Positions 18,173-37,113 of a DNA stretch of 37,113 nt are shown here, piece after piece; the first letter of the stretch is position 1, and each line of letters begins with the position of its first letter. The position numbers and the translations under genes were made by a program. A model generated the notes under the pieces. The model did not search any database, was not told the origin of the DNA, and saw nothing but the letters and a program-made list of their open reading frames with translations. Source of the stretch: a virus (taxonomy: Duplodnaviria; Caudoviricetes); IMG/VR virus record IMGVR_UViG_3300005764_000038, positions 1-37,113 of that record. One strand, written 5' to 3'.

Positions 18173-18421
18173 TCAAGCCCCGGACTCGGAAGCCGCGGGT
18201 TCCCCGCGCAGTATCCCGGCGAGTGAGAGGTCTTCGTCGAGCTCGGGCCAGCAGATGCCGCTTCCGCCACCGATGAGCCGGTAATTCCCTCGCTGCGCGT
18301 CCGTTGCTCCGTAGAGACGGGGATACCACTTCAGCGGCACCACGCACTCTCGGCCGTCGGTGAGCCTCACTCGAAGCCACGAACCGGTTGTTCGAACGCT
18401 GTGAATTCGCTCGTCGCTCAT
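18173..18421 (-). CDS. DUF2442 family protein (antitoxin-like)
   Basis: LRVRLTDGR...VPLKWYPRLYGATDAQRGNYRLIGGGSGICWPELDEDLSLAGIL matches the DUF2442 pattern. Confidence 0.85.
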   Translation of the reverse strand: MSDERIHSVRTTGSWLRVRLTDGRECVVPLKWYPRLYGATDAQRGNYRLIGGGSGICWPELDEDLSLAGILRGEPAASESGA

Positions 18422-21729: not shown

Positions 21730-21970
21730 CCCCGACTTTGACACTTTCATGCGGACGGGGCGTAACGCGCTGATACAATGCGACACGTTTCCAGCCGAAA
21801 ACCCGCCAAACAGCGGCGCCCGTGCTGTTTGCAAAGGACGAAGGTTCCTTTAGCGCAAGGGACCTTTGCTCGCTCGCCATTCGACGGGTTTCCAGCATGA
21901 TTCATGCTCCTTCCGTTACTCCGCTACGGCGCCGGCCGAGGCCTCGTCGGACCCCGACTTTGACGCTTTC
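21730..21970. other. Candidate attP region
   Basis: 19-bp direct repeats CCCCGACTTTGAC(A/G)CTTTC at 21730-21748 and 21952-21970 flank several inverted repeats, including AAGGTTCCTT-tagcgc-AAGGGACCTT at 21841-21866, at the 3' end of int. Confidence 0.6.
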
Positions 21971-22992
21971 TTGTGCTTTTCGACGAGCGCGATCTGCGCT
22001 TCCATGACGCCCATGGTGGCGAGCGCTTCGGGGTGGCCGTAGACGCGCTCGACCATTTTCGAGTCCACGTGTCCGAGGTTTTTCGCGACGAGCGCGGTAT
22101 GGACCCCGGCCTCGATGAGCCACGTGGCGTGTGTCCGGCGTAGATCGTTCGGGGTCAAGCGGGGGATGCCGGCCTTCGCGCAGCGGCGGGGCAGGTCGCG
22201 CGAGATGCGGGCCCATTTCGTTTCCATGGCCGGCAGCGCCGTCAGAAGCAGGTCCCGGAACGGGGTCGGGACGGGCACCACGCGCGCCGAGAGCGCCGTC
22301 TTAGAGCCCCGCAGTCTGACGAGCCAAGAACGGTGGTTCACGTCGAGCCGTACCGCGCGCAGGTACTCGGAGAGCCGGGCGCTCGTCGCCACGATGAAGG
22401 TCACCGCCGAAAGCTCGTGCGGTTTCAGAACGGCCGCAAGCTTCTCTAGGTCCCCCTGGTCCAGATGCGCCTTGCGCGGCATATAGCCCGAGGAGAAGCC
22501 GATGGGTTTCAGCGCCGAGATATCACCCGCGTACTGGCCCTCGCGCTTGGCGTGCTTGCAAACCTGGACGAGACACGCGAGCTCTTTTACGAGGGTGTTA
22601 TTGCAGGCGCCTTCCTCGCGCCGCTTGTCGATGTACCGATCGATCGTGGTCGGGGTAATCACCGACATCGGGCTATGCTTGCCGAAGATGCGGCTTACGT
22701 GACCGAGCTTGCAGCGGTACATGTTCACGGTGCCGGCCGCGCTGTGCTCGACCTTGATCGCTATCACCCTGTCTATCCAGTGCCCGAGCTCCGCTTCACG
22801 CGAGGCAAGGTAAAGGGGGTTGTTGACGCAACGTTCCCGATCTTCGAGCCAAGCGCGAGCGCCTTCGATCGTGCGCGCGCCCGTGGAAACTCGCTTGCCG
22901 GAAGCCGGATCACGGGACCACCATACTTTGGAGATCCGTTGCTGGCCGGTTTTCTTGTCGAGGTATTTCGGTTTATAGAATCCGTCTTGCAT
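21916..22992 (-). CDS. int: Tyrosine recombinase / integrase (358 aa)
   Basis: Catalytic motifs TSARLSE (R), GSKT (K), NDLRRT (HxxR box with N), LGH and RVYGH (Y). Confidence 0.92.
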   Translation of the reverse strand: MQDGFYKPKYLDKKTGQQRISKVWWSRDPASGKRVSTGARTIEGARAWLEDRERCVNNPLYLASREAELGHWIDRVIAIKVEHSAAGTVNMYRCKLGHVSRIFGKHSPMSVITPTTIDRYIDKRREEGACNNTLVKELACLVQVCKHAKREGQYAGDISALKPIGFSSGYMPRKAHLDQGDLEKLAAVLKPHELSAVTFIVATSARLSEYLRAVRLDVNHRSWLVRLRGSKTALSARVVPVPTPFRDLLLTALPAMETKWARISRDLPRRCAKAGIPRLTPNDLRRTHATWLIEAGVHTALVAKNLGHVDSKMVERVYGHPEALATMGVMEAQIALVEKHKKASKSGSDEASAGAVAE

Positions 22993-23344: not shown

Positions 23345-23584
23345 TTAGGCGGCCCCCCGGTTGGTGCTACACCACGCATGGCGGTACCGAAGGCCATCGA
23401 AATGGACGCGCTCGGTTGGCTCGATGACCCGGCCGCACTCCGGGCAGGTTTGCTGAACGGGCCCCGGGGGGCCGGAAATCTCTGGAGGTTGCCGGTCATC
23501 GAAGAAGCGCAAGAGCACCCGCGTACCGACGTAGGCCGCGAAGAAGATGCCGGCGATCCACCAATAGAAATAGGCGGTAACCAT
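23345..23584 (-). CDS. Small membrane protein with C-terminal Zn finger (79 aa)
   Basis: Hydrophobic segment YFYWWIAGIFFAAYVG and a CPEC...HAWC motif. Confidence 0.6.
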   Translation of the reverse strand: MVTAYFYWWIAGIFFAAYVGTRVLLRFFDDRQPPEISGPPGPVQQTCPECGRVIEPTERVHFDGLRYRHAWCSTNRGAA

Positions 23585-23592
23585 ATGGGGCC

Positions 23593-23823
23593 TCACGCGG
23601 CAAGCACGTCCGGCGGCTCGCCCGATCCGAAAAGGAGCCACCCCGGGGAGCACCGAAGAGCGCTCGCGATGTTTCGGGCGGCTCGAAGCCGCAGATTTGA
23701 GCTACGTTCGCCGCGTTCGAGCTTGCTCACCATGGAAAGAGAGAGCTTCGCCCGGGTCGCAAGCTCGCGCTGACTCAGATTTCGGGCGATTCGCAGGCGC
23801 CGGATACGGGTGCGCATCATCAT
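23593..23823 (-). CDS. Cro-like XRE HTH regulator (about 76 aa)
   Basis: Contains RIRRLRIARNLSQRELATRAKLSLSMVSKLERG...IASALRCSPGWLLFG. Confidence 0.85.
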   Translation of the reverse strand: MMMRTRIRRLRIARNLSQRELATRAKLSLSMVSKLERGERSSNLRLRAARNIASALRCSPGWLLFGSGEPPDVLAA

Positions 23824-23832
23824 GGCTTTCGA

Positions 23833-23864
23833 AGCACTAGCGTACTTCGCAGCACGGTGGTACT
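23833..23864. promoter_or_regulatory. Tandem operators between the divergent repressor genes
   Basis: AGCACtagcGTACT at 23833-23846 and AGCACggtgGTACT at 23851-23864. Confidence 0.7.
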
Positions 23865-23925
23865 CCAGAACAATCGTCCACCGAATCCAGATGACCCCGA
23901 AACGCGGCCAGGGCAGGCTAGGCCC

Positions 23926-24423
23926 GTGACCCTGTACGACCGCATGAAGCGGGTAATTGCGATGCACCCCGGCTGGACCACCCGCCATTGGGCCCGCGCG
24001 GCGGGGCTAGCCGAGGAAAGTCACGTCTACACGATAATGCAACGGCTCCGGAGAAACCCGGAGGCGACGGTTTCAGTACGGACGCTTGCCGCACTTGCGG
24101 AGGGGGCTGACGTCCCTTTTGAGTGGCTCTCCACCGGGAAGGGCGACCCCCGTAGTACCTGGATACGGATCGACCCCGACCCCATGTACCCGACCCGGGC
24201 TCAGGCGATTGTCGCGGCCCGCCTGCTCGGTTGGGATTCCCGCGCCATCGCGAAGGTGAGCTCCGTCAGTAATCTCCCGACCGATCCGGGGCTCGATTAC
24301 TGGCGCCGTCTTATCGAGGCTCAGCACGTGGCCCTCCCGCGCGACGCGCTTACCGGTCCGCTTCCAATCGCTATCAGGGCGGACGGTTCCGGCCCGCACA
24401 CGGGCCGCCGCAAGACCCGGTAA
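23926..24423 (+). CDS. CI-like repressor with N-terminal HTH (start uncertain: 23857, 23926 or 23944)
   Basis: Contains WARAAGLAEESHVYTIM...RTLAALAEGADVPFEWLSTGKG and is divergent from the cro-like gene. No S24 peptidase domain is visible. Confidence 0.7.
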   Translation: MTLYDRMKRVIAMHPGWTTRHWARAAGLAEESHVYTIMQRLRRNPEATVSVRTLAALAEGADVPFEWLSTGKGDPRSTWIRIDPDPMYPTRAQAIVAARLLGWDSRAIAKVSSVSNLPTDPGLDYWRRLIEAQHVALPRDALTGPLPIAIRADGSGPHTGRRKTR

Positions 24424-24713
24424 GATGTCCGCGGGAGCCCCCTCGAGTCGGGCAACCTCACGCAAACCCCCGCCCGGGATTTCTTCGTAGGAAATCACCC
24501 GAGCTAAGTTACCGAATCTTTGGACGGAGAAGACCACGATCGGCCCCTTCTCCCGGCGAGTCCCCCGAACAGAAGCCCCGGACCTTATCCGACCCGAACC
24601 GCCGGATGGAAGTGGGCTCTTCTGCCACAGCACACGATTTGTACGAGCCTCCCCGCCCATGTGGGCCGATGTCGGGAAAGCTCCCACTTATTTGTGACAT
24701 TCAGGCACTAAAG

Positions 24714-24750
24714 AGCACCCCGGTACTAAAGTACTAGAGTACTCCGTACT
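24714..24750 (+). promoter_or_regulatory. Operator cluster upstream of the rightward early operon
   Basis: AGCACcccgGTACT at 24714-24727, GGTACtaaaGTACT at 24722-24735 and AGTACtagaGTACT at 24730-24743. Confidence 0.7.
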
Positions 24751-24751
24751 C

Positions 24752-25078
24752 GTGTCCCCTGAAGACGCGGCTTACTACGACTATCGCGCGGCCGAGCTCG
24801 AAGCCCGCGAGCGCGAGGAAGAAGAAGCCGAGGCTCGGAGGGAGACCGAGAGAAGGGAGCGTAGTGGGATGACGGTCCAGGATGCGCTACGGGAGACGGC
24901 AAGGCTCGCGAAGGGGCGAGCGGAATACTTCGAGTGCCGGGCGGGCCGGCGCGATTCGTACCGGACGCCCGCGGCCACCGAGCCCGCCGAGCGGGCCCGC
25001 TTCGAACGTGACGCGCTTGCCTTCGGACAGGCCGCGGCCGTCATCACGACGCTTGCCGATACGGGGAAATGGCCATGA
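24752..25078 (+). CDS. Hypothetical protein (108 aa)
   Basis: First ORF after the operator cluster, coupled to the next gene. Confidence 0.65.
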   Translation: MSPEDAAYYDYRAAELEAREREEEEAEARRETERRERSGMTVQDALRETARLAKGRAEYFECRAGRRDSYRTPAATEPAERARFERDALAFGQAAAVITTLADTGKWP

Positions 25079-25257
25079 CCAATACGCACCGTCAACGGGT
25101 GCGCCGCAAGATCGGACGCGCGCTCGAATGGCTCGGTGACGCGCTATGGGGACTCTGCCAGGCCGATTACTCGTTTGCGGCCGCCGCCTACTGCTTCCTT
25201 CGGGCCCGGGGCATCGGGGAGCGTGAGAGCGATGCGATCCTTCGGGGGCAGCCATGA
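25075..25257 (+). CDS. Hypothetical protein (60 aa)
   Basis: ATGA overlaps on both sides. Confidence 0.6.
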   Translation: MTNTHRQRVRRKIGRALEWLGDALWGLCQADYSFAAAAYCFLRARGIGERESDAILRGQP

Positions 25258-26741
25258 GAACGCTTCTGCTCGTCGACCTGTCTAACGTGTACTGGACGCT
25301 CTACCACGTCACGAGCGACAAGCCGCTTTCGGAGGCCTTCGAAGCCACCGTCAGCAAGGTGCACGGCCTGCGGGGGGGGTTCGATTACTGCGTTTGTTGC
25401 TGCGATGCGAAGTCGCCCTATTTTCGCCACGAGCTTCTGCCGTCTTACAAGGCAAACCGCGAAACCGCGCCCGCGCAAGCCGTCGAGCAATTCGCCCGCG
25501 TGCGTGAACGCCTCCGAAAGGATGGCCTTCTCTTGTGGGGGGCCGACGGTTTCGAAGCGGATGACGTCATCGCGACGGCCACGGCCCGCGCCATCGAAGA
25601 AGGGCTTTCGGTCACAATCGCGAGCGCCGACAAGGATCTCTTGCAGCTCGTCGACGATGACAAGGGGGTGCGCGTCTTCTCTCCGTTCACGGAAAAGCTC
25701 ATGATGCGGACGCAGGTTATCGAGAAATTCGGCGTTGCACCCGAGATGATGGGAGACCTGCTCGCGCTCGTCGGTGATAAGGCCGACAACGTGGAAGGCG
25801 TACCGAAGATCGGCGTCAAGACCGCGGCGAAGCTTCTCCTTCAATGGGGAACGCTCGATGACGTGCTCTTCAAGGCAGATCAGAACACCCCGGCGGTCCG
25901 TGACGCGCTCATCACGTATGCCGAAAACGCTCGCCTCGCTCGGCGGATAGTGCAGCTTCGGCACGACGTACCGATCGACTGGTCTGAGCTCTTCGCCGAC
26001 CGGCGGCCCGAGCCGCTTGCCGAGGCTCAGTGGACGGAGGGCGAGACGGAGGCCGACGAGGCCGCTCAGGCGCTCATTAGCGGGCCCCGGAAGCCCGACA
26101 CCATGCCGGCCCCCGCCCCGGCGCCCGAGACGCCGAGGGAGCCAAAGGACGAGCCCCGCCAGGGCCCCGGGGTGCGCTCGATCGTCGTGCCGGACACCGC
26201 ATCCCTCGCCGCTCTCGATTGGAACCTTCAGCTCGAACCGACGACGCTCGCCATTGCCCGCCGGCTCGCGATCGACCTGAACGAGTCCCGGCTCTTCGCG
26301 AAGAAATTCCACTCGGCCGAGGCTATCTTCGCCGTCATCATCCGCGGGCGAGAGATGGGCATCGGGGCGCTGACGGCGCTCGCGGTCACGCACTTTTTTG
26401 AAGATAAGATGTCGCTAGATGCCCACTACATCGTGGCGAAGGCGAAGGAGCACCCCGATTGCGAGTGGTTTCAGTACATCGGGGGAGACGACACGTATGC
26501 CGAGTGGCGGACGAAAAACCGCCGAAACCCCGGGCCCACGACGCACCGGTACACGATCGAGCAGGCGCAAAAGGCGGGCCTGCTTCGCCCGAGCCGAAGC
26601 GGCTACCCGTCAAACTGGACGCTTCGCCCGAACGAGCTCTTGCGGAAGACTTGCGCGGTGCAGCTCGTGCGGATGGAGTACCCGTCGGCCGCGCTCGGGC
26701 TTTACGCCGTCGAAGAGCTCGGCAGCGAAGACGCCGCATAG
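25254..26741 (+). CDS. 5'-3' exonuclease (PolA/FEN-type PIN + H3TH) fused to a RecT-like single-strand annealing domain
   Basis: N-terminal motifs LLVD, RHELLPSYKANR, FEADDVIAT, SADKDLLQL and GDKADNVEGVPKIGVKTA. C-terminal motifs RGREMGIG, YTIEQAQKAGL and NWTLRPNELLRK...RMEYP...GLYAVEE. Confidence 0.85.
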   Translation: MRTLLLVDLSNVYWTLYHVTSDKPLSEAFEATVSKVHGLRGGFDYCVCCCDAKSPYFRHELLPSYKANRETAPAQAVEQFARVRERLRKDGLLLWGADGFEADDVIATATARAIEEGLSVTIASADKDLLQLVDDDKGVRVFSPFTEKLMMRTQVIEKFGVAPEMMGDLLALVGDKADNVEGVPKIGVKTAAKLLLQWGTLDDVLFKADQNTPAVRDALITYAENARLARRIVQLRHDVPIDWSELFADRRPEPLAEAQWTEGETEADEAAQALISGPRKPDTMPAPAPAPETPREPKDEPRQGPGVRSIVVPDTASLAALDWNLQLEPTTLAIARRLAIDLNESRLFAKKFHSAEAIFAVIIRGREMGIGALTALAVTHFFEDKMSLDAHYIVAKAKEHPDCEWFQYIGGDDTYAEWRTKNRRNPGPTTHRYTIEQAQKAGLLRPSRSGYPSNWTLRPNELLRKTCAVQLVRMEYPSAALGLYAVEELGSEDAA

Positions 26742-26783
26742 TGAACCTATACCTATCGAGGGCGCATACTGTATCGGTGAGCC

Positions 26784-27236
26784 ATGGCTACATCAAACGG
26801 CACGGATACCGAGAGCACGACTTCGCCCGACGAGGCCGCGCGGCTTTTCTTCACCGACAAGGCATGGCGGGAGCGGTTCGAGGCGCGCTGCGAGAACCAG
26901 CGTGAGGCCGCCCGGAGCGAAGCGGAAGAGATGATCCGAGAGGGGCAAGAACGCCTTGCGGCCCTGGCTGACTCGAGCGGCAAGTGGCTCGCGCCGAAGC
27001 CATTGAAGAAGACGAACGGCAAGGCCGCGCCCGCCCCGAAGGGCAAACCGAAGGCGAACACCAGTTCGACCGATGCGCTCGATTGCATCCGGGGCGCGGG
27101 GAAAGACGGTATCGGAACGGTCGCGCTTAGCAAGGTGCTCGGCACCGCAGCGGGTCCCGTCGTCCGCCCGCTCATCGATGCCGGCAAGGTCCGGAGCACC
27201 GGAAAGAAGCGCGGTATGACCTTCTTCGCCGTTTAA
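26784..27236 (+). CDS. DNA-binding protein: coiled-coil N-terminus, basic linker, C-terminal winged helix (150 aa)
   Basis: C-terminus LIDAGKVRSTGKKRGMTFF is wing-like. Confidence 0.65.
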   Translation: MATSNGTDTESTTSPDEAARLFFTDKAWRERFEARCENQREAARSEAEEMIREGQERLAALADSSGKWLAPKPLKKTNGKAAPAPKGKPKANTSSTDALDCIRGAGKDGIGTVALSKVLGTAAGPVVRPLIDAGKVRSTGKKRGMTFFAV

Positions 27237-27266
27237 ACGGTACGCCTGGCGTGATAATGAAGCCGG

Positions 27267-27995
27267 ATGATTGCGCCGCATGAATTAAGGGCGGAATTCC
27301 GCGCGCGCGGGTATGCGGTGGCTCCGGGGGTGGTCAATCCGGCGGCAATTGACCTGCTGCTCGAACGGTTTACCGGATTGGTCCGTAAAGCCGGACTGCC
27401 GTCATTCAAGGATCCGCGGGGACCCGTAGCAGCCGATCTGCTCGCCGCGCACCCGGATATCGTGGCGCGTGTTTACGATGAGATCCGGCAAACGCCGTGG
27501 CTCGCGGCCCTGGCCATGGACCCGGGTATCACCGCGCTCATCGGAGAGATCATTCAACGACCGTTCGGCCTTCTTAGAAAGCTGCCCTTTCGAATCGACG
27601 TGCCGCGCGAGACGAAAGAGATCGCTGTTTGGCACCAGGATTATTTCTATGTTCGCGGCAGTCGCCAGACGATCACCGCGTGGATCCCGCTTCAAGACAC
27701 GAGCTACTTGAACGGCTGCCTTTTGATCATGCCGGGTAGCCATGAGCTCGGCCCCCTCGGGCACGATGGCCACGCGCTCGGCAAGCGGCATTTCCCGACC
27801 GCCATTTTTGGCAGAGAGGTGCGCTACATCGAGCTACGACTAGGGGACGCGCTCTTTTTTGACGCTTGTCTGCTGCACTCGTCCGGCGTGAACCTATCGC
27901 CCGTTGTTCGCTACTCTCTGAACGCCCGATTTGCACCACTCGATGGGGAGCACGATCCGGGCATGGGGGGCATTCTCCCGATCGAGGCACCATGA
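27267..27995 (+). CDS. PhyH-family Fe(II)/2-oxoglutarate dioxygenase
   Basis: Motifs WHQD (HxD), AWIPLQD, NGCLLIMPGSH and GDALFF...LHSSGVN...R. Confidence 0.9.
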   Translation: MIAPHELRAEFRARGYAVAPGVVNPAAIDLLLERFTGLVRKAGLPSFKDPRGPVAADLLAAHPDIVARVYDEIRQTPWLAALAMDPGITALIGEIIQRPFGLLRKLPFRIDVPRETKEIAVWHQDYFYVRGSRQTITAWIPLQDTSYLNGCLLIMPGSHELGPLGHDGHALGKRHFPTAIFGREVRYIELRLGDALFFDACLLHSSGVNLSPVVRYSLNARFAPLDGEHDPGMGGILPIEAP

Positions 27996-28741
27996 TCCGC
28001 GAACCCAAGAACCAGTCACCGGCTGACACCGCTCAGTTTGCGGCCGTCGAACGCGTGTTCGCGGAATCTGCCGGGAGCGTCTCCGACAAACTCGACGCTT
28101 TCCCAAAATTCGCGAGCAGGCAAGCACTCGCCAAGTTTTTAGCCCGGTACGAGATTTTCAAACAAATCCTCGCTGTGAACGGCTCGATCATTGAATGCGG
28201 GGTCCTCCATGGCGGCGGGCTCCTTACATGGGCAAAACTCTCGGCCATTTTTGAACCATCGAATCACACGCGCCGAATCATCGGGTTCGATACATTCACC
28301 GGGTTTCCGAGCGTGCACGCGTCTGACCTTTCCGGCGACTCGTCACATGTGGCGGTCGGAGGGCTTCGGGGCTCCACGCTCGCGGACGTGTCCGCCGCGG
28401 TAGAGCTATTCGATCTGAACCGTCCGATCGCCCATATCCCGAAAATTGAGCTTGTGGCGGGTAACCTCTGCTCGACCGCTGGCATCTATCTCCGGTCTAA
28501 CGAGCATCTCGTGGTCGGGCTTCTCTATCTCGATGTCGACCTCTATGAGCCAACCAAGGCGGCCCTAGAGGCGTTCTTGCCCCGGATGCCACGAGGCGCC
28601 GTGCTCGCCTTTGACGAGCTCAACGCCAAGACGTTTCCCGGGGAAACGCGAGCCGTGCAAGAGGCGATAGGCCTGGCTAACCTGAAGATTCGGCGCTTTC
28701 CCTTCGATCCGTATATCTCGTTTGCGATCATTGGCGACTAG
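27992..28741 (+). CDS. TylF/MycF/NovP-family SAM-dependent O-methyltransferase (249 aa)
   Basis: ATGA overlap with the dioxygenase gene. Motifs GSIIECGVLHG, GFDTFTGFP, LDVDLYEPT and GAVLAFDE. Confidence 0.88.
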   Translation: MIREPKNQSPADTAQFAAVERVFAESAGSVSDKLDAFPKFASRQALAKFLARYEIFKQILAVNGSIIECGVLHGGGLLTWAKLSAIFEPSNHTRRIIGFDTFTGFPSVHASDLSGDSSHVAVGGLRGSTLADVSAAVELFDLNRPIAHIPKIELVAGNLCSTAGIYLRSNEHLVVGLLYLDVDLYEPTKAALEAFLPRMPRGAVLAFDELNAKTFPGETRAVQEAIGLANLKIRRFPFDPYISFAIIGD

Positions 28742-28877
28742 GTGTGTCTTCACTTGTCGACGATCACGCGCGCGCCCCCGTCGGGCAGCTCGATAGGCAC
28801 GTAATAACAGACTTGTTTCATCGAACAGGACCCAGCGCCCCAAAAGAGCAGGCAAATCCACAAGCGCGCCTTGACGC

Positions 28878-29951
28878 TCATAGGGTCACGAGCCCCCCAT
28901 ATTTCAGCGCCACCGCGCTATCCAATGCAGCGATCGCGCCCGCACCCATGGCATAGGTACCCGTCAGAATCATGTGTGAGGCTATTTCGATTTTGCCAAA
29001 CTGGGCCGATCCGGAAAAATACGCACCAATGGTAAACCCCGCGGACGGATCGCTATTGCCTGCATTGGCCCCCGTAACGGTGCTCGCCCCTGCCCTGAGA
29101 AAGTCCCCGGTTGAGTTTGTGAACTGGACCACGAAACGACACCATGTGTTAACGGCAGCCCCGCTATTGTTGTTTACGTTCGAGCCGCAATACATCGACA
29201 GCGCCGGGGTTGCTACCTGCATACTTAATACCCCGGCAGCGGTTCCGCTAGTATTCCCACAGAAACCCTTGCCGCTCGTCCATGTCAGGGTTCGGGCCAC
29301 AATATAGTAACAGAAGGGTGTGGACCCCGGGGCCGCCATATTGATGCTCGCTGCGTCAAGCTGATCGTCGATGCCGTCCGTCTGAACCGTAGCGAAGCCA
29401 TTTAGGGCGGCCGCATTGCGGGCGGGTTGTTTGCTACCCGTGGCTTGCGAATAATTGTTTCCATTACCCGATTGGTCGGCCCAAGCGGAGACCCCGGTGC
29501 CGATGGTGATTCCCAGATCGGACTGTACGCTAGCAACCACCGTCCCCCCGTTCGCGGTGGCTACCTTTGCGAAATCGGTAATGACGGTAATGTTGATTGT
29601 GGGGGAACTCGTCGATTGGCCGGCCCGCGTCGCTTTTGCGGCTAGCGTATGAGACCCATCCGCAATGGTTGTCTCTGTCCAGCTGGTAGAAAAGGTTCCG
29701 GCAGGGGTACCGGCGCCCAATACGGTAGCGACCACGGTAGAGCCATCTAAGATCCACTCCATCTTATCAAGATCGGTATCCGTAGTCGAAGCAGATACCG
29801 TAACAGCTGTGCTGTGATAGACGTTGGATCCATTTGTTGGGGCCGTCAATGTCGGCACTTGTGGTGCGGCCGGGCCGCTTCCGCCCCCGCCGAGAATCCC
29901 TGGCGGCACACCCCCGAAGATCGGGGCTACTCCAATACCGATAGCGCCCAT
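28878..29951 (-). CDS. Virion protein with Ig-like plus LamG-like domains; candidate receptor-binding protein (357 aa)
   Basis: Ig-like region TAPTNGS...ADGSHTLAAKAT, then LamG-like region VSAWADQSGNGNNYSQATGSKQP...DGIDDQL. Confidence 0.75.
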   Translation of the reverse strand: MGAIGIGVAPIFGGVPPGILGGGGSGPAAPQVPTLTAPTNGSNVYHSTAVTVSASTTDTDLDKMEWILDGSTVVATVLGAGTPAGTFSTSWTETTIADGSHTLAAKATRAGQSTSSPTINITVITDFAKVATANGGTVVASVQSDLGITIGTGVSAWADQSGNGNNYSQATGSKQPARNAAALNGFATVQTDGIDDQLDAASINMAAPGSTPFCYYIVARTLTWTSGKGFCGNTSGTAAGVLSMQVATPALSMYCGSNVNNNSGAAVNTWCRFVVQFTNSTGDFLRAGASTVTGANAGNSDPSAGFTIGAYFSGSAQFGKIEIASHMILTGTYAMGAGAIAALDSAVALKYGGLVTL

Positions 29952-35405: not shown

Positions 35406-37113
35406 TCACCTCATTCCAATCTGTGCCATTTGCGGTGTCTGCTTCTTCAGGCCGAGCTCAAGCGCAAGCCCCGTAAACGAGGCGCTGGCCCCCGCCGGAC
35501 TGCCGAGCTTCGGCCCATCGGCAATGGTCACCTGACAGAATGCTGCGGTTTGGTCGCGCAGGTGCATCTTCAGCGCATACGTGAAGAGAGCCCCCGTCGC
35601 GGCGTCCGGCCACGTGAAAGACTGCGAGAGCGGAAGAGCCCCCGTCGGGTGGTGAAACGTGTCGATCTTCACCGTCAGGTCATGCACGCCGAGGCGCGTT
35701 CCGAGCACCGATAGCCATCGCGCGCGCGTGAAGGCCTGCGTCGAGCCGGGATTGAGCATGGCGGTTTTGAGCTCGGTATAGATCCATTGGCCACCCGGAT
35801 CGGCGTAGCCCTCCTCTCGATAGAGAAGCGGGCTTGCCTGGATTGTGGAAAAGACCCCGTCCGGAGTGACCGCAAACGAAGTATGAAAAGTAAAGGCCGT
35901 GCCGAGCTCATTGGGGAAACCGATCTGATCGACCGACCACACGTTGTGGGCCCAATCGTACACGATGGTGCGGCCGTCGAAAGAGTCGACGATGGTACGC
36001 GCGTCCGCCATGGCCCAGTAAATGAACTCTTTGTCGGGGACCACGAGCGACGCGAGCGTGAACGGAAACGCGCTTACCGTGTCTTCCACGTTGCCACCCA
36101 CACGAGCAATGTCCGTCTTCCGATTCATCAGGCAAAACCCGGTCGTCGCCTGATAGATGATGCCATTGGGGAAGGTAACGACGCTTTCGGCCGAGATGCA
36201 CCCGTGTGGAGAGTTTAGATGGAAGGGTTCTTGATAGTCGGAGTTCAGTCCCTTCCGGTCGGGGCCGTCACCTGTGATGAGATAGATCCCGTTCTTGCAA
36301 AGGATGACGAGCTTTTCGTCGATCGTCGCAAGCGCCACGCACTCGTCGGGGACGTCTATCACGAGATCCGGATGCCACCCGGGAAGCTCCCCAGCGTCAT
36401 ACGTGTGCGTGAAAACGACCTTCTTCCGGTTCTCGGCCGAGATCCCAAAGAGTCGGTTTCGGTGCGTGTGAATGTATGAGAGCGCGGGCGGGCTCCAGTT
36501 TTCGAGAATATCCCCGTGCGTGTAAACCTTCCGGTGTTGAATGGCCGCGGCGTCCGCTTGCTGGACCGTGATGGAAAGCGCGACGGGTCCCGGGTAGGCG
36601 TTAGCGAAGCCGCTCGAAACCGTAAAGTCGCCCTCGGCGTAGTAAATCGTTCCGTTCGCCTCGGTGCGATACGCACGGCAAACGCTCCCGCCTGCGTTGC
36701 TGAGCTCTTGCCACTTGCGAGTGAGATTCAGAGTGGGCGCGGTGATTGTGATCTTGTCGTTCGCCACCGTCGGGATATTCGTGGCCGTCGGGGATAGATG
36801 CACGAGCGCAGGCGCGCTTTGTACGATGTCACCAGTCGCGAGCCGGTATTCGAAAACGAGCTCGGCCCCGTACTGGCCTGCCGTCAGGTTTCCGCCTGAG
36901 CCCGCTGCAACGGCCTTGCCGTTCTCAGGGGGTACGAGGAAGCCGTACTCTTGCAGCGCAACGCCGTCCCACACTTGGGGAACGCCACCCGAAAACACGA
37001 CGTTGTCACCGATGCGCTCCGCGAAGATAGGCGGAATATTCGTGATCCGTTGACGGCACAGATCGACGCCAGGCCGGCCGACAATTGCGCCCGTGTCGGT
37101 GCCCGCTGTGATG
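35406..37113 (-). CDS. Tail tubular protein B / gp10-like protein, C-terminal part
   Basis: The frame stays open from 36998 to the window end. Beta-propeller-like motifs HRNRLF, LVILCKNGIYLITGDGP, HGCIS and TIVYDWAHNVWS. Confidence 0.8.
   Translation of the reverse strand, partial: ITAGTDTGAIVGRPGVDLCRQRITNIPPIFAERIGDNVVFSGGVPQVWDGVALQEYGFLVPPENGKAVAAGSGGNLTAGQYGAELVFEYRLATGDIVQSAPALVHLSPTATNIPTVANDKITITAPTLNLTRKWQELSNAGGSVCRAYRTEANGTIYYAEGDFTVSSGFANAYPGPVALSITVQQADAAAIQHRKVYTHGDILENWSPPALSYIHTHRNRLFGISAENRKKVVFTHTYDAGELPGWHPDLVIDVPDECVALATIDEKLVILCKNGIYLITGDGPDRKGLNSDYQEPFHLNSPHGCISAESVVTFPNGIIYQATTGFCLMNRKTDIARVGGNVEDTVSAFPFTLASLVVPDKEFIYWAMADARTIVDSFDGRTIVYDWAHNVWSVDQIGFPNELGTAFTFHTSFAVTPDGVFSTIQASPLLYREEGYADPGGQWIYTELKTAMLNPGSTQAFTRARWLSVLGTRLGVHDLTVKIDTFHHPTGALPLSQSFTWPDAATGALFTYALKMHLRDQTAAFCQVTIADGPKLGSPAGASASFTGLALELGLKKQTPQMAQIGMR

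What the first reader, a model, noticed from the sequence alone, without database searches (positions are those of the whole stretch)
25254..26741. One-polypeptide recombination machine: FEN/PolA-type 5'-3' exonuclease fused to a RecT-like annealase
Seen: about aa 1-246 form a 5'-3' exonuclease with the acidic catalytic motifs and H3TH. A Pro/Glu/Ala linker of about 75 aa follows, then about 170 aa with a RecT-family pattern, with no stop or frameshift between them. Known: phage two-component systems (lambda Exo/Beta, RecE/RecT) use separate genes and PD-(D/E)xK-type exonucleases. Inference: a nuclease of a different fold has been tethered to the annealase, giving coupled resection and annealing or flap trimming in one protein. 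No other exonuclease or annealase was recognised in the genome. It could serve as a single-gene recombineering tool for myxobacteria. I cannot confirm novelty without a search.
Basis: partly seen in the sequence, partly recalled or inferred. Interest (0 to 1): 0.85.

Follow-up and report, generated by a model that had tools for sequence, protein, structure and literature searches.

The report
Phage flap nuclease fused to annealase
This uncultured temperate phage, like hundreds of relatives, encodes one protein that joins a DNA-polymerase-I-type flap nuclease to a domain predicted to fold like the lambda Red-beta strand-annealing protein, so it likely does in one chain the DNA end-trimming and annealing that phages normally split between two proteins.

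Summary
Observation confirmed. Window 25254-26741 (+) is one 495-aa frame: a Pol I/FEN-type 5' nuclease (aa 1-250), a disordered linker, and a Red-beta/RecT-fold domain (aa 322-488; Foldseek to lambda Red-beta E 4e-5, TM 0.57). It is a family, not an assembly artefact: 119 of the 120 best nuclease-domain hits carry the annealase domain, and 117 of 119 annealase-domain hits carry the full nuclease. The nuclease's acidic catalytic residues and the equivalents of Red-beta's DNA-binding W143 and R161 are near-invariant in 129 diverse members. Unfused relatives keep a C-terminal extension and often sit beside YqaJ/DUF3799 nucleases. Fused ones lack that extension, and 0 of 11 fused phage records hit YqaJ or PDDEXK_1. 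The tether therefore likely replaces the usual exonuclease partner and its docking domain. Many relatives show a likely internal start that would make annealase-only protein, but this gene has no good one. No activity was tested. A myxobacterial host is unproven, and a two-gene myxobacterial recombineering system is already published. Ten literature searches found no description of the fusion. This scan reported the same family before in at least six other genomes. Verdict: new variant of a known kind.

The parts
25254..26741 (+). Fusion gene, 495 aa: FEN/Pol I-type 5' nuclease, linker, Red-beta/RecT-type annealase core
   Evidence: Single frame; family of >200 full-length relatives
25244..25257 (+). 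G-rich ribosome-binding-like site and ATG overlapping the stop of the upstream 62-aa ORF (25069-25257); likely translational coupling
   Evidence: Sequence; anti-SD pairing -8.6 kcal/mol; ORF list
25254..26003 (+). 5'-3' exo/flap endonuclease domain (aa 1-250) with D8, D51, E101, D103, D104, D126, D128, D175, D178, arch residues Y65/K66/R69 and H3TH
   Evidence: Pfam; Foldseek to ExoIX, FenA, Taq Pol, T5 FEN; phmmer to Taq Pol I E 8e-37; conservation in 129 members
26004..26216 (+). Pro/Ala/Glu-rich, largely disordered linker (about aa 251-321); poorly conserved, 32-146 aa in relatives; tolerates an in-frame 9-nt insertion behind 26028
   Evidence: pLDDT; 16% mean identity against 44% and 51% for the domains; lengths; runs X5 and X6
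26036..26105 (+). Region where relatives carry an SD + internal start. Here there is only GGAGG (26036-26040) before an in-frame ACG (26046) and a weak-SD ATG (M284, 26103); an internal start in this gene is doubtful
26217..26717 (+). Red-beta/RecT-fold annealase core (aa 322-488) with W455 (=Red-beta W143), K465 (=H153) and R473 (=R161)
   Evidence: Fold searches; profile hit to 7UJL E 0.0019 with alignment; conservation
26718..26741 (+). Short acidic tail and stop; no Red-beta-like C-terminal domain
   Evidence: 44 of 44 fused rows end <=25 aa after the core; 22 of 24 unfused rows have >=45 aa
21916..24423 (.). Context: tyrosine integrase (21916-22992 -) and divergent HTH pair (23593-23988 -, 23857-24423 +). 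The fusion lies in the transcription direction of the + strand repressor-like gene, a position like lambda's early left operon
   Evidence: PHROGs/Pfam; integrase upstream on the opposite strand in 4 of 5 related viral loci annotated

Best explanation
The gene encodes a FEN-type 5' nuclease and a predicted Red-beta/RecT-type annealase in one chain, which likely works as a single-gene phage single-strand-annealing recombinase. Inferred steps: (1) the annealase cores oligomerise on single-stranded DNA as Red-beta does; (2) the flexibly tethered nucleases remove the 5'-ending strand at broken or linear phage DNA ends, and the oligomer supplies the avidity that the toroidal lambda Exo gets from its ring; (3) the exposed 3' strand is bound and annealed to a complementary strand of another genome or a replication fork; (4) the same nucleases cut the displaced 5' flap to leave a ligatable nick. 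The covalent tether likely replaces the C-terminal domain through which Red-beta docks on Exo. In many relatives an internal start at the beginning of the linker would add nuclease-free annealase subunits. Shown: architecture, family, residue conservation, loss of the C-terminal extension and of a PD-(D/E)xK neighbour. Predicted: the fold. Inferred: all activities and their coupling.
For: Reciprocal co-occurrence: 117 of 119 annealase-domain hits have the full nuclease and 2 have part of it. 119 of the 120 best nuclease hits have the annealase domain; the exception is a 99%-identical 300-aa piece ending in the linker. Both halves look active: 7 of 9 carboxylates plus Y65, K66 and R69 are invariant in 129 of 129 members, D8 is in 127 and D51 in 128; R473 is in 129, W455 in 126 and K465 in 107. 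The Red-beta equivalents W143, H153 and R161 bind the template strand (passages of PMC9512822; mapping). Replacement pattern: unfused relatives of the annealase lie beside YqaJ or DUF3799 in 7 of 14 genome loci, and beside YqaJ or PDDEXK_1 in 2 of 5 further loci, with a below-cut-off DUF2800 hit in a third. YqaJ and PDDEXK_1 hit 0 of 11 fused phage records, 6 of them >=90% complete. The C-terminal extension is absent in 44 of 44 fused rows and present in 22 of 24 unfused; Red-beta's CTD binds Exo and SSB (abstract PMC6393309). The gene sits in an early-operon position, and an SSB gene directly follows it in L004. Internal start, family level: Met at linker offsets 7-13 in 56 of 129 against 16.4 expected (max 27 in 1000 shuffles); SD + start at offsets 4-25 in 13 of 17 loci against 6.9 under synonymous resampling (0 of 150 as strong), with six control windows null.
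Against: No biochemical or genetic data. FEN-family nucleases are structure-specific and, from my own knowledge, mostly distributive, so long resection is not a given. Red-beta without its CTD anneals but does not recombine in vivo (abstract PMC5052646), and how the fusion reaches SSB-coated DNA is unexplained; this genome has no SSB match. Pfam RecT is below cut-off for this member, and the Red-beta R128 and K154 positions are not conserved (K440 variable, T466). The two halves reassort: P0268 is 70% identical in the nuclease but 37% in the annealase, which argues against a tightly co-evolved machine. The internal-start windows were chosen after seeing the data, the ATG-only SD test was not significant (35 of 150), and this gene is one of 4 of 17 loci without such a site. 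The absence searches can miss divergent nucleases, and DUF3799 was searched only in this genome. For 7 of 14 unfused loci no nuclease neighbour was seen within 1.5 kb.
Confidence: 0.62

Rival explanations
1. The annealase is real, but the nuclease acts only after annealing: it trims 5' flaps or RNA primers at the new joint, and resection is left to host enzymes or replication gaps.
For: The domain is a Pol I/FEN-type enzyme with intact arch residues, a class described as cleaving flaps and Okazaki primers (passage of PMC5499597). Red recombination at forks is more sensitive to 5' than 3' non-homology (abstract PMC2918612).
Against: Fused phages have lost the PD-(D/E)xK resection nuclease that unfused relatives keep, so a phage-encoded end-processing role is vacant. 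T7 gp6 and T5 D15 digest duplex ends (recalled).
Confidence: 0.2
2. The fusion mainly serves replication, or is a fusion of convenience: primer removal or concatemer processing, with the two halves acting independently or being separated by internal initiation or proteolysis.
For: Long, variable, disordered linker; domain reassortment; internal-start signal in relatives; replication genes near some loci.
Against: No unfused copy among the 120 best nuclease hits except one piece ending in the linker. One frame is kept across 31-55% identity. The phages encode no Pol I-like polymerase that I saw, and the host has its own Pol I 5' nuclease (general knowledge).
Confidence: 0.14
3. Artefact or decay: a read-through from an assembly error, or a dead RecT remnant attached to a nuclease.
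For: The Pfam RecT score is under cut-off; no raw reads were available.
Against: More than 200 independent full-length relatives; 7 ESM Atlas clusters with this Pfam set; the C-domain is more conserved than the nuclease (51% against 44%); other runs keep the frame.
Confidence: 0.03

Closest known systems
Lambda Red (Exo + Red-beta) and Rac RecE + RecT; exonuclease-annealase two-component recombinases (EATR, review PMC11611040)
   Same: 5'-3' nuclease plus Red-beta/RecT-fold annealase; early operon of a temperate phage; Red-beta W143, H153 and R161 positions kept as W, K and R
   Different: One polypeptide; nuclease of FEN/PIN fold instead of PD-(D/E)xK; annealase has no C-terminal Exo/SSB-binding domain; stoichiometry fixed at 1:1 unless an internal start adds annealase
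YqaJ-RecT and DUF3799-RecT phage modules (PMC8093625), incl. Myxococcus MxRecET (PMC13454183)
   Same: The nearest unfused relatives of the annealase domain are in such modules
   Different: Separate genes, PD-(D/E)xK nuclease, annealase with C-terminal extension
Pol I 5' nuclease domain and stand-alone FENs (Taq Pol, E. coli ExoIX/Xni, M. smegmatis FenA, T5 D15, T4 RNase H)
   Same: Fold and both carboxylate clusters
   Different: Fused to an annealase instead of a polymerase or alone; forms its own clade apart from the 74 cellular Pol I-type rows (SH-aLRT 100, quick tree; stand-alone phage FENs not in the tree)
T7 gp6 exonuclease + gp2.5 (recalled, not checked in a call)
   Same: A FEN-family exonuclease working with a strand-annealing protein in phage recombination
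   Different: Separate proteins; gp2.5 is an OB-fold SSB, not a RecT/Red-beta annealase; lytic phage

Membership tests
FEN / Pol I-type 5'-3' nuclease (PF02739 + PF01367) | PIN-like core plus H3TH domain above Pfam cut-offs, FEN fold | tested here: met
   101.8 and 82.1 bits against cut-offs 34.3 and 40; Foldseek E 6e-19 to ExoIX
FEN / Pol I-type 5'-3' nuclease (PF02739 + PF01367) | Metal-binding carboxylates and basic arch residues | tested here: met
   D8, D51, E101, D103, D104, D126, D128, D175, D178, K66 and R69 present; they align with Taq Pol motifs from D51 on; 127-129 of 129 conserved
FEN / Pol I-type 5'-3' nuclease (PF02739 + PF01367) | 5' exonuclease / flap endonuclease activity | not testable with these tools
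   Needs an in vitro assay
RecT/Red-beta single-strand annealing proteins (PF03837) | Pfam RecT score above gathering cut-off | tested here: inconclusive
   19.6-22.1 bits against 24 for this protein; 43 of 55 family members match at E<=0.001, best 1e-9
RecT/Red-beta single-strand annealing proteins (PF03837) | beta-hairpin + helix + three-stranded sheet + helix fold | tested here: met
   Predicted model; 7UJL TM 0.57/0.62, Z 9.4; 7UB2 TM 0.51, Z 6.3
RecT/Red-beta single-strand annealing proteins (PF03837) | Conserved inner-strand DNA-binding residues (Red-beta W143, H153, K154, R161, R128) | tested here: met
   W455, K465 and R473 kept (126, 107 and 129 of 129); K154 and R128 positions not conserved. 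The F66 equivalent could not be assigned
RecT/Red-beta single-strand annealing proteins (PF03837) | C-terminal domain binding exonuclease and host SSB | tested here: not met
   Protein ends 7 aa after the core motif; 44 of 44 fused rows end <=25 aa after the core
RecT/Red-beta single-strand annealing proteins (PF03837) | Oligomerisation and ATP-independent annealing | not tested
   No homo-oligomer prediction was run; annealing needs a bench assay
EATR two-component recombinase (lambda Red, RecET) | Two separate proteins joined by a protein-protein contact | tested here: not met
   One frame, conserved as one frame
EATR two-component recombinase (lambda Red, RecET) | PD-(D/E)xK exonuclease partner | tested here: not met
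   Partner domain is FEN-type; YqaJ and PDDEXK_1 hit 0 of 11 fused phage records
EATR two-component recombinase (lambda Red, RecET) | Promotes RecA-independent dsDNA recombination in vivo | not testable with these tools
   Needs a recombineering assay

The most novel reading that the evidence does not exclude
A widespread, undescribed third architecture of phage recombinase: an annealase filament decorated with tethered flap nucleases that resects, anneals and trims the 5' flap in one machine. It would need no Exo/SSB-docking domain, and one gene would set its own nuclease-to-annealase ratio by an internal start. It would be a natural single-gene dsDNA recombineering module and the simplest system in which to solve a complete exonuclease-annealase structure.
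Probability: 0.4. Interest if true: 0.8.

Novelty: new variant of a known kind. Interest (0 to 1): 0.62.

Why it matters
The 2023 review of these systems (passages of PMC11611040) lists as open how exonuclease and annealase form one machine, whether they stay together, and how a 1:1 complex meets the need for excess annealase; no full complex structure exists. A natural covalent version, apparently with a built-in way to make extra annealase in many members, makes those questions directly testable with one protein. It also shows non-orthologous replacement of the resection nuclease by a flap nuclease that could finish the joint. And it offers hundreds of one-gene candidates for recombineering, of unknown host range.

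Tried and rejected
Docking of the two halves: the full-length AF2 model had pTM 0.77, but the ESM Atlas model had pTM 0.51, and the complex prediction of aa 1-260 with aa 318-492 gave no verdict (score 0.01, mark 0.32, controls not folded). Nothing is concluded either way. A single-sequence PDB search with the C-domain found nothing meaningful. The C-domain found 1 weak unannotated record among 50,697 cultured or GenBank phages and none in plasmids. A viral-contig scan with the nuclease domain alone found no pattern match, so I could not test for a two-gene FEN + RecT version with context. Short annealase-only hits (8; 32 of 150) begin with linker-like sequence and, where known, lie on short contigs. 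I read them as truncations or internal-start gene calls, not proof of split genes; this was not verified. FEN fused to a Rad52-type annealase (earlier scan notes) was not seen among my 120 best nuclease hits or in the Atlas. No RNA holder was listed. Runs X1, X2, X7 and X8 gave no useful cover. No sigma-70-like promoter was found in 23400-28900. NCBI-source members gave a host name for only 1 of 10 (Polyangiaceae MAG). The record behind L090 is not held. Iyer, Koonin and Aravind 2002 on SSAP classification was not held, so I could not check it. The careful nuclease tree did not finish; both trees are quick trees, and support for one origin of the fused annealase is weak (54).

Full report
Observation. 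Window 25254-26741 (+) is one 495-aa frame. Its ATG overlaps the stop of a 62-aa upstream ORF and follows a G-rich site pairing with an anti-SD at -8.6 kcal/mol. Pfam places 5_3_exonuc_N at aa 4-160 and the H3TH/SAM domain at aa 161-244, far above cut-off, and RecT at aa 415-492 below cut-off (19.6 against 24 bits). PHROGs gives three weak RecT/Bet-like hits for the C-part. The full-length AF2 model has two confident domains and a low-confidence linker. The nuclease half matches ExoIX, FenA, Taq Pol and T5 FEN. The C-domain folded alone (pLDDT 91.7, 120-row alignment) has lambda Red-beta NTD 7UJL as its only Foldseek hit under 1e-3 (E 4.4e-5, TM 0.57/0.62). In VIA-align 7UJL is the only chain of 48,161 with Z>=8 (Z 9.4), followed by LiRecT 7UB2 (6.3); RAD52 is fourth (5.7) among dsRBD-like rows. 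A profile of 18 C-domains also finds Red-beta by sequence (E 0.0019).

Not an artefact. L090 holds the gene exactly but may share the sample. Contigs of run X4 cover 24700-25968 and 25980-27300 unchanged; X5 and X6 bridge the junction and carry an in-frame 9-nt linker insertion, also seen as three extra residues in P0267. Only contigs, not reads, were available. Searching with the C-domain gave 119 proteins, 117 with the full nuclease and 2 with part of it. Searching with the nuclease gave 120 listed hits, 119 with the annealase domain; both searches covered only 272-867 aa. In the 50%-identity library the C-domain has 3,216 hits. Of the best 150, 99 are full fusions, 14 partial, 32 lack the nuclease and end like the fusions (probably truncated or internal-start calls, unverified), and 5 are stand-alone annealases with a C-terminal extension. 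The 207 full fusions then in hand fell into 102 groups at 50% identity. The ESM Atlas shows 7 clusters with this Pfam set among 30 hits; the three listed are 97-100% viral.

Both halves look functional. In 129 diverse fusions, E101, D103, D104, D126, D128, D175, D178, R58, Y65, K66 and R69 are invariant, D51 is in 128 and D8 in 127. They align with the Taq Pol I motifs. On the annealase side, Red-beta W143, H153 and R161, which hydrogen-bond the template strand (passages of PMC9512822), map to W455, K465 and R473, found in 126, 107 and 129 of 129. The R128 and K154 positions are not conserved. Mean identity to this protein is 44% in the nuclease, 16% in the linker and 51% in the annealase (55 rows).

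Context. The window is a temperate tailed phage: terminase, SU10-like portal and adaptor, major head protein, tyrosine integrase and a divergent HTH pair (43 ORFs scanned). CheckV calls the record 51% complete. However, the contig behind L090 is 37,121 bp, starts at window 20411 and has 20,793 bases left where the window's two remaining arms sum to 20,785. That suggests a circularly permuted, essentially complete genome; this is inference, as the record could not be fetched. The fusion lies two small ORFs downstream of the + strand repressor-like gene. An integrase lies upstream on the opposite strand in 4 of 5 related viral loci, and an SSB gene directly follows the fusion in L004 (103 selected ORFs).

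What the fusion replaced. Unfused relatives of the annealase sit beside YqaJ (L114, L126) or DUF3799 (L115-L118, L121) in 7 of 14 genome loci; 60 of 84 candidate frames were scanned, with 1.5-kb flanks, and L110-L112 are near-identical. Among 5 further loci, L095 has YqaJ, L002 has PDDEXK_1, L092 has a below-cut-off DUF2800, and L001 and L089 have none. YqaJ and PDDEXK_1 hit 0 of 10 related fused phage records (6 at least 90% complete) and not this one; DUF3799 and SSB were searched only here, with no hit. All 44 fused rows end within 25 aa of the core, while 22 of 24 unfused rows have 45 aa or more. Red-beta's CTD binds Exo and SSB (abstract, PMC6393309) and is needed for recombination but not annealing (abstract, PMC5052646). 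Quick trees put the 57 fused nucleases on one side of a branch against 74 cellular Pol I-type rows (SH-aLRT 100; no stand-alone phage FENs included) and the 44 fused annealases on one side with weak support (54). One old origin is compatible with the data, not shown. The halves reassort: P0268 and P0269 are about 70% identical in the nuclease but 32-37% in the annealase.

Internal start (lead from earlier finding e1-10074970, tested here). Met occurs at linker offsets 7-13 in 56 of 129 proteins, against a mean of 16.4 and a maximum of 27 in 1000 within-linker shuffles. In 17 DNA loci (duplicates and L087 dropped), an SD plus ATG/GTG/TTG at offsets 4-25 occurs in 13, against 6.9 under synonymous resampling (0 of 150 as strong); six control windows are null, and the ATG-only test is not significant (35 of 150). 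The windows were picked after seeing the data. This gene is one of four without such a site: it has GGAGG before an in-frame ACG, and M284 with a weak SD. Excess annealase improves Red recombination (passage, PMC11611040), so an internal start would solve the fixed 1:1 ratio in many members. It is not supported for this one.

Mechanism. Most likely (0.62) this is a one-gene single-strand-annealing recombinase: the annealase oligomer carries tethered nucleases that remove the 5' strand and later trim 5' flaps. Rivals are flap or primer trimming only (0.2), independent halves or a replication role (0.14), and artefact or decay (0.03). All activities are inferred from fold, residues and context.

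Host and tool value. Fusions were found in 6 MAG contigs (2 Polyangiaceae, and one each of Betaproteobacteria, Rhodospirillales, Vicinamibacterales and Chloroflexota; scan stopped at 51 of 64 parts); phage contigs in MAGs can be mis-binned. The annealase profile hit 11 of 401 genomes of the phylum of G011 (Myxococcota by L003's label) and 3 of 401 of the phylum of G014. Each count includes the seed, and the seeds were the only fused hits. A myxobacterial host is plausible but unproven. A two-gene MxRecET tool is published (passages and section 7 of PMC13454183).

Novelty. Ten full-text searches listed no paper describing this fusion. Term look-ups found no mention in PMC8093625, PMC11783212, PMC11611040, PMC12926913, PMC13490951 or PMC5499597 (passages only; supplements not read, and they could list the architecture). 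Subscription journals, patents and the 2002 SSAP classification were not searchable. Databases label members only as 5'-3' exonuclease. It works like lambda Red/RecET but fails two defining features of that class (two proteins; PD-(D/E)xK nuclease), and FEN-type nucleases in viral recombination have precedents as separate genes (T7 gp6, recalled). Hence: new variant of a known kind, interest 0.62. This scan reported the same family in at least six other genomes; those are unchecked AI notes and are not counted as support.

Noticed in passing
L110:1018-2874, L111:1057-2913, L112:159-2421: Three genomes of the Myxococcota sample carry a near-identical unfused RecT-like gene, among the closest unfused relatives of the annealase domain, directly beside a CDP-alcohol phosphatidyltransferase gene and with no nuclease neighbour within 1.5 kb; possibly a domesticated chromosomal annealase.
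   Followed up: partly
window 27267-28741 (+): A PhyH-type dioxygenase gene and a TylF-type O-methyltransferase gene follow the fusion operon; a possible auxiliary or modification cassette.
   Followed up: no
window ends (1-1504 and 35406-37113) and L090: Open minus-strand frames at both ends and a differently permuted 37,121-bp record suggest a circular, nearly complete genome despite CheckV's 51%.
   Followed up: partly
window 26017-26280 (+): An 87-aa TTG-started alternative frame spans the linker. It is Arg/Pro-rich and looks like a shadow frame; an earlier scan note reports a nested gene in another member's linker.
   Followed up: no
window 26784-27236 (+): 150-aa ORF right after the fusion with a Lys/Pro-rich middle and a C-terminal part that looks HTH-like by eye; only a weak DUF3253 hit.
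   Followed up: no
window 18173-18421 (-): DUF2442 protein (E 7e-22), usually seen in toxin-antitoxin-like pairs (recalled), upstream of the terminase.
   Followed up: no
P0167, P0169, P0170, P0195, P0207, P0210: A subgroup of fusions with very long linkers (about 190-230 aa, total 620-670 aa) and no Pfam domain in the insert.
   Followed up: partly
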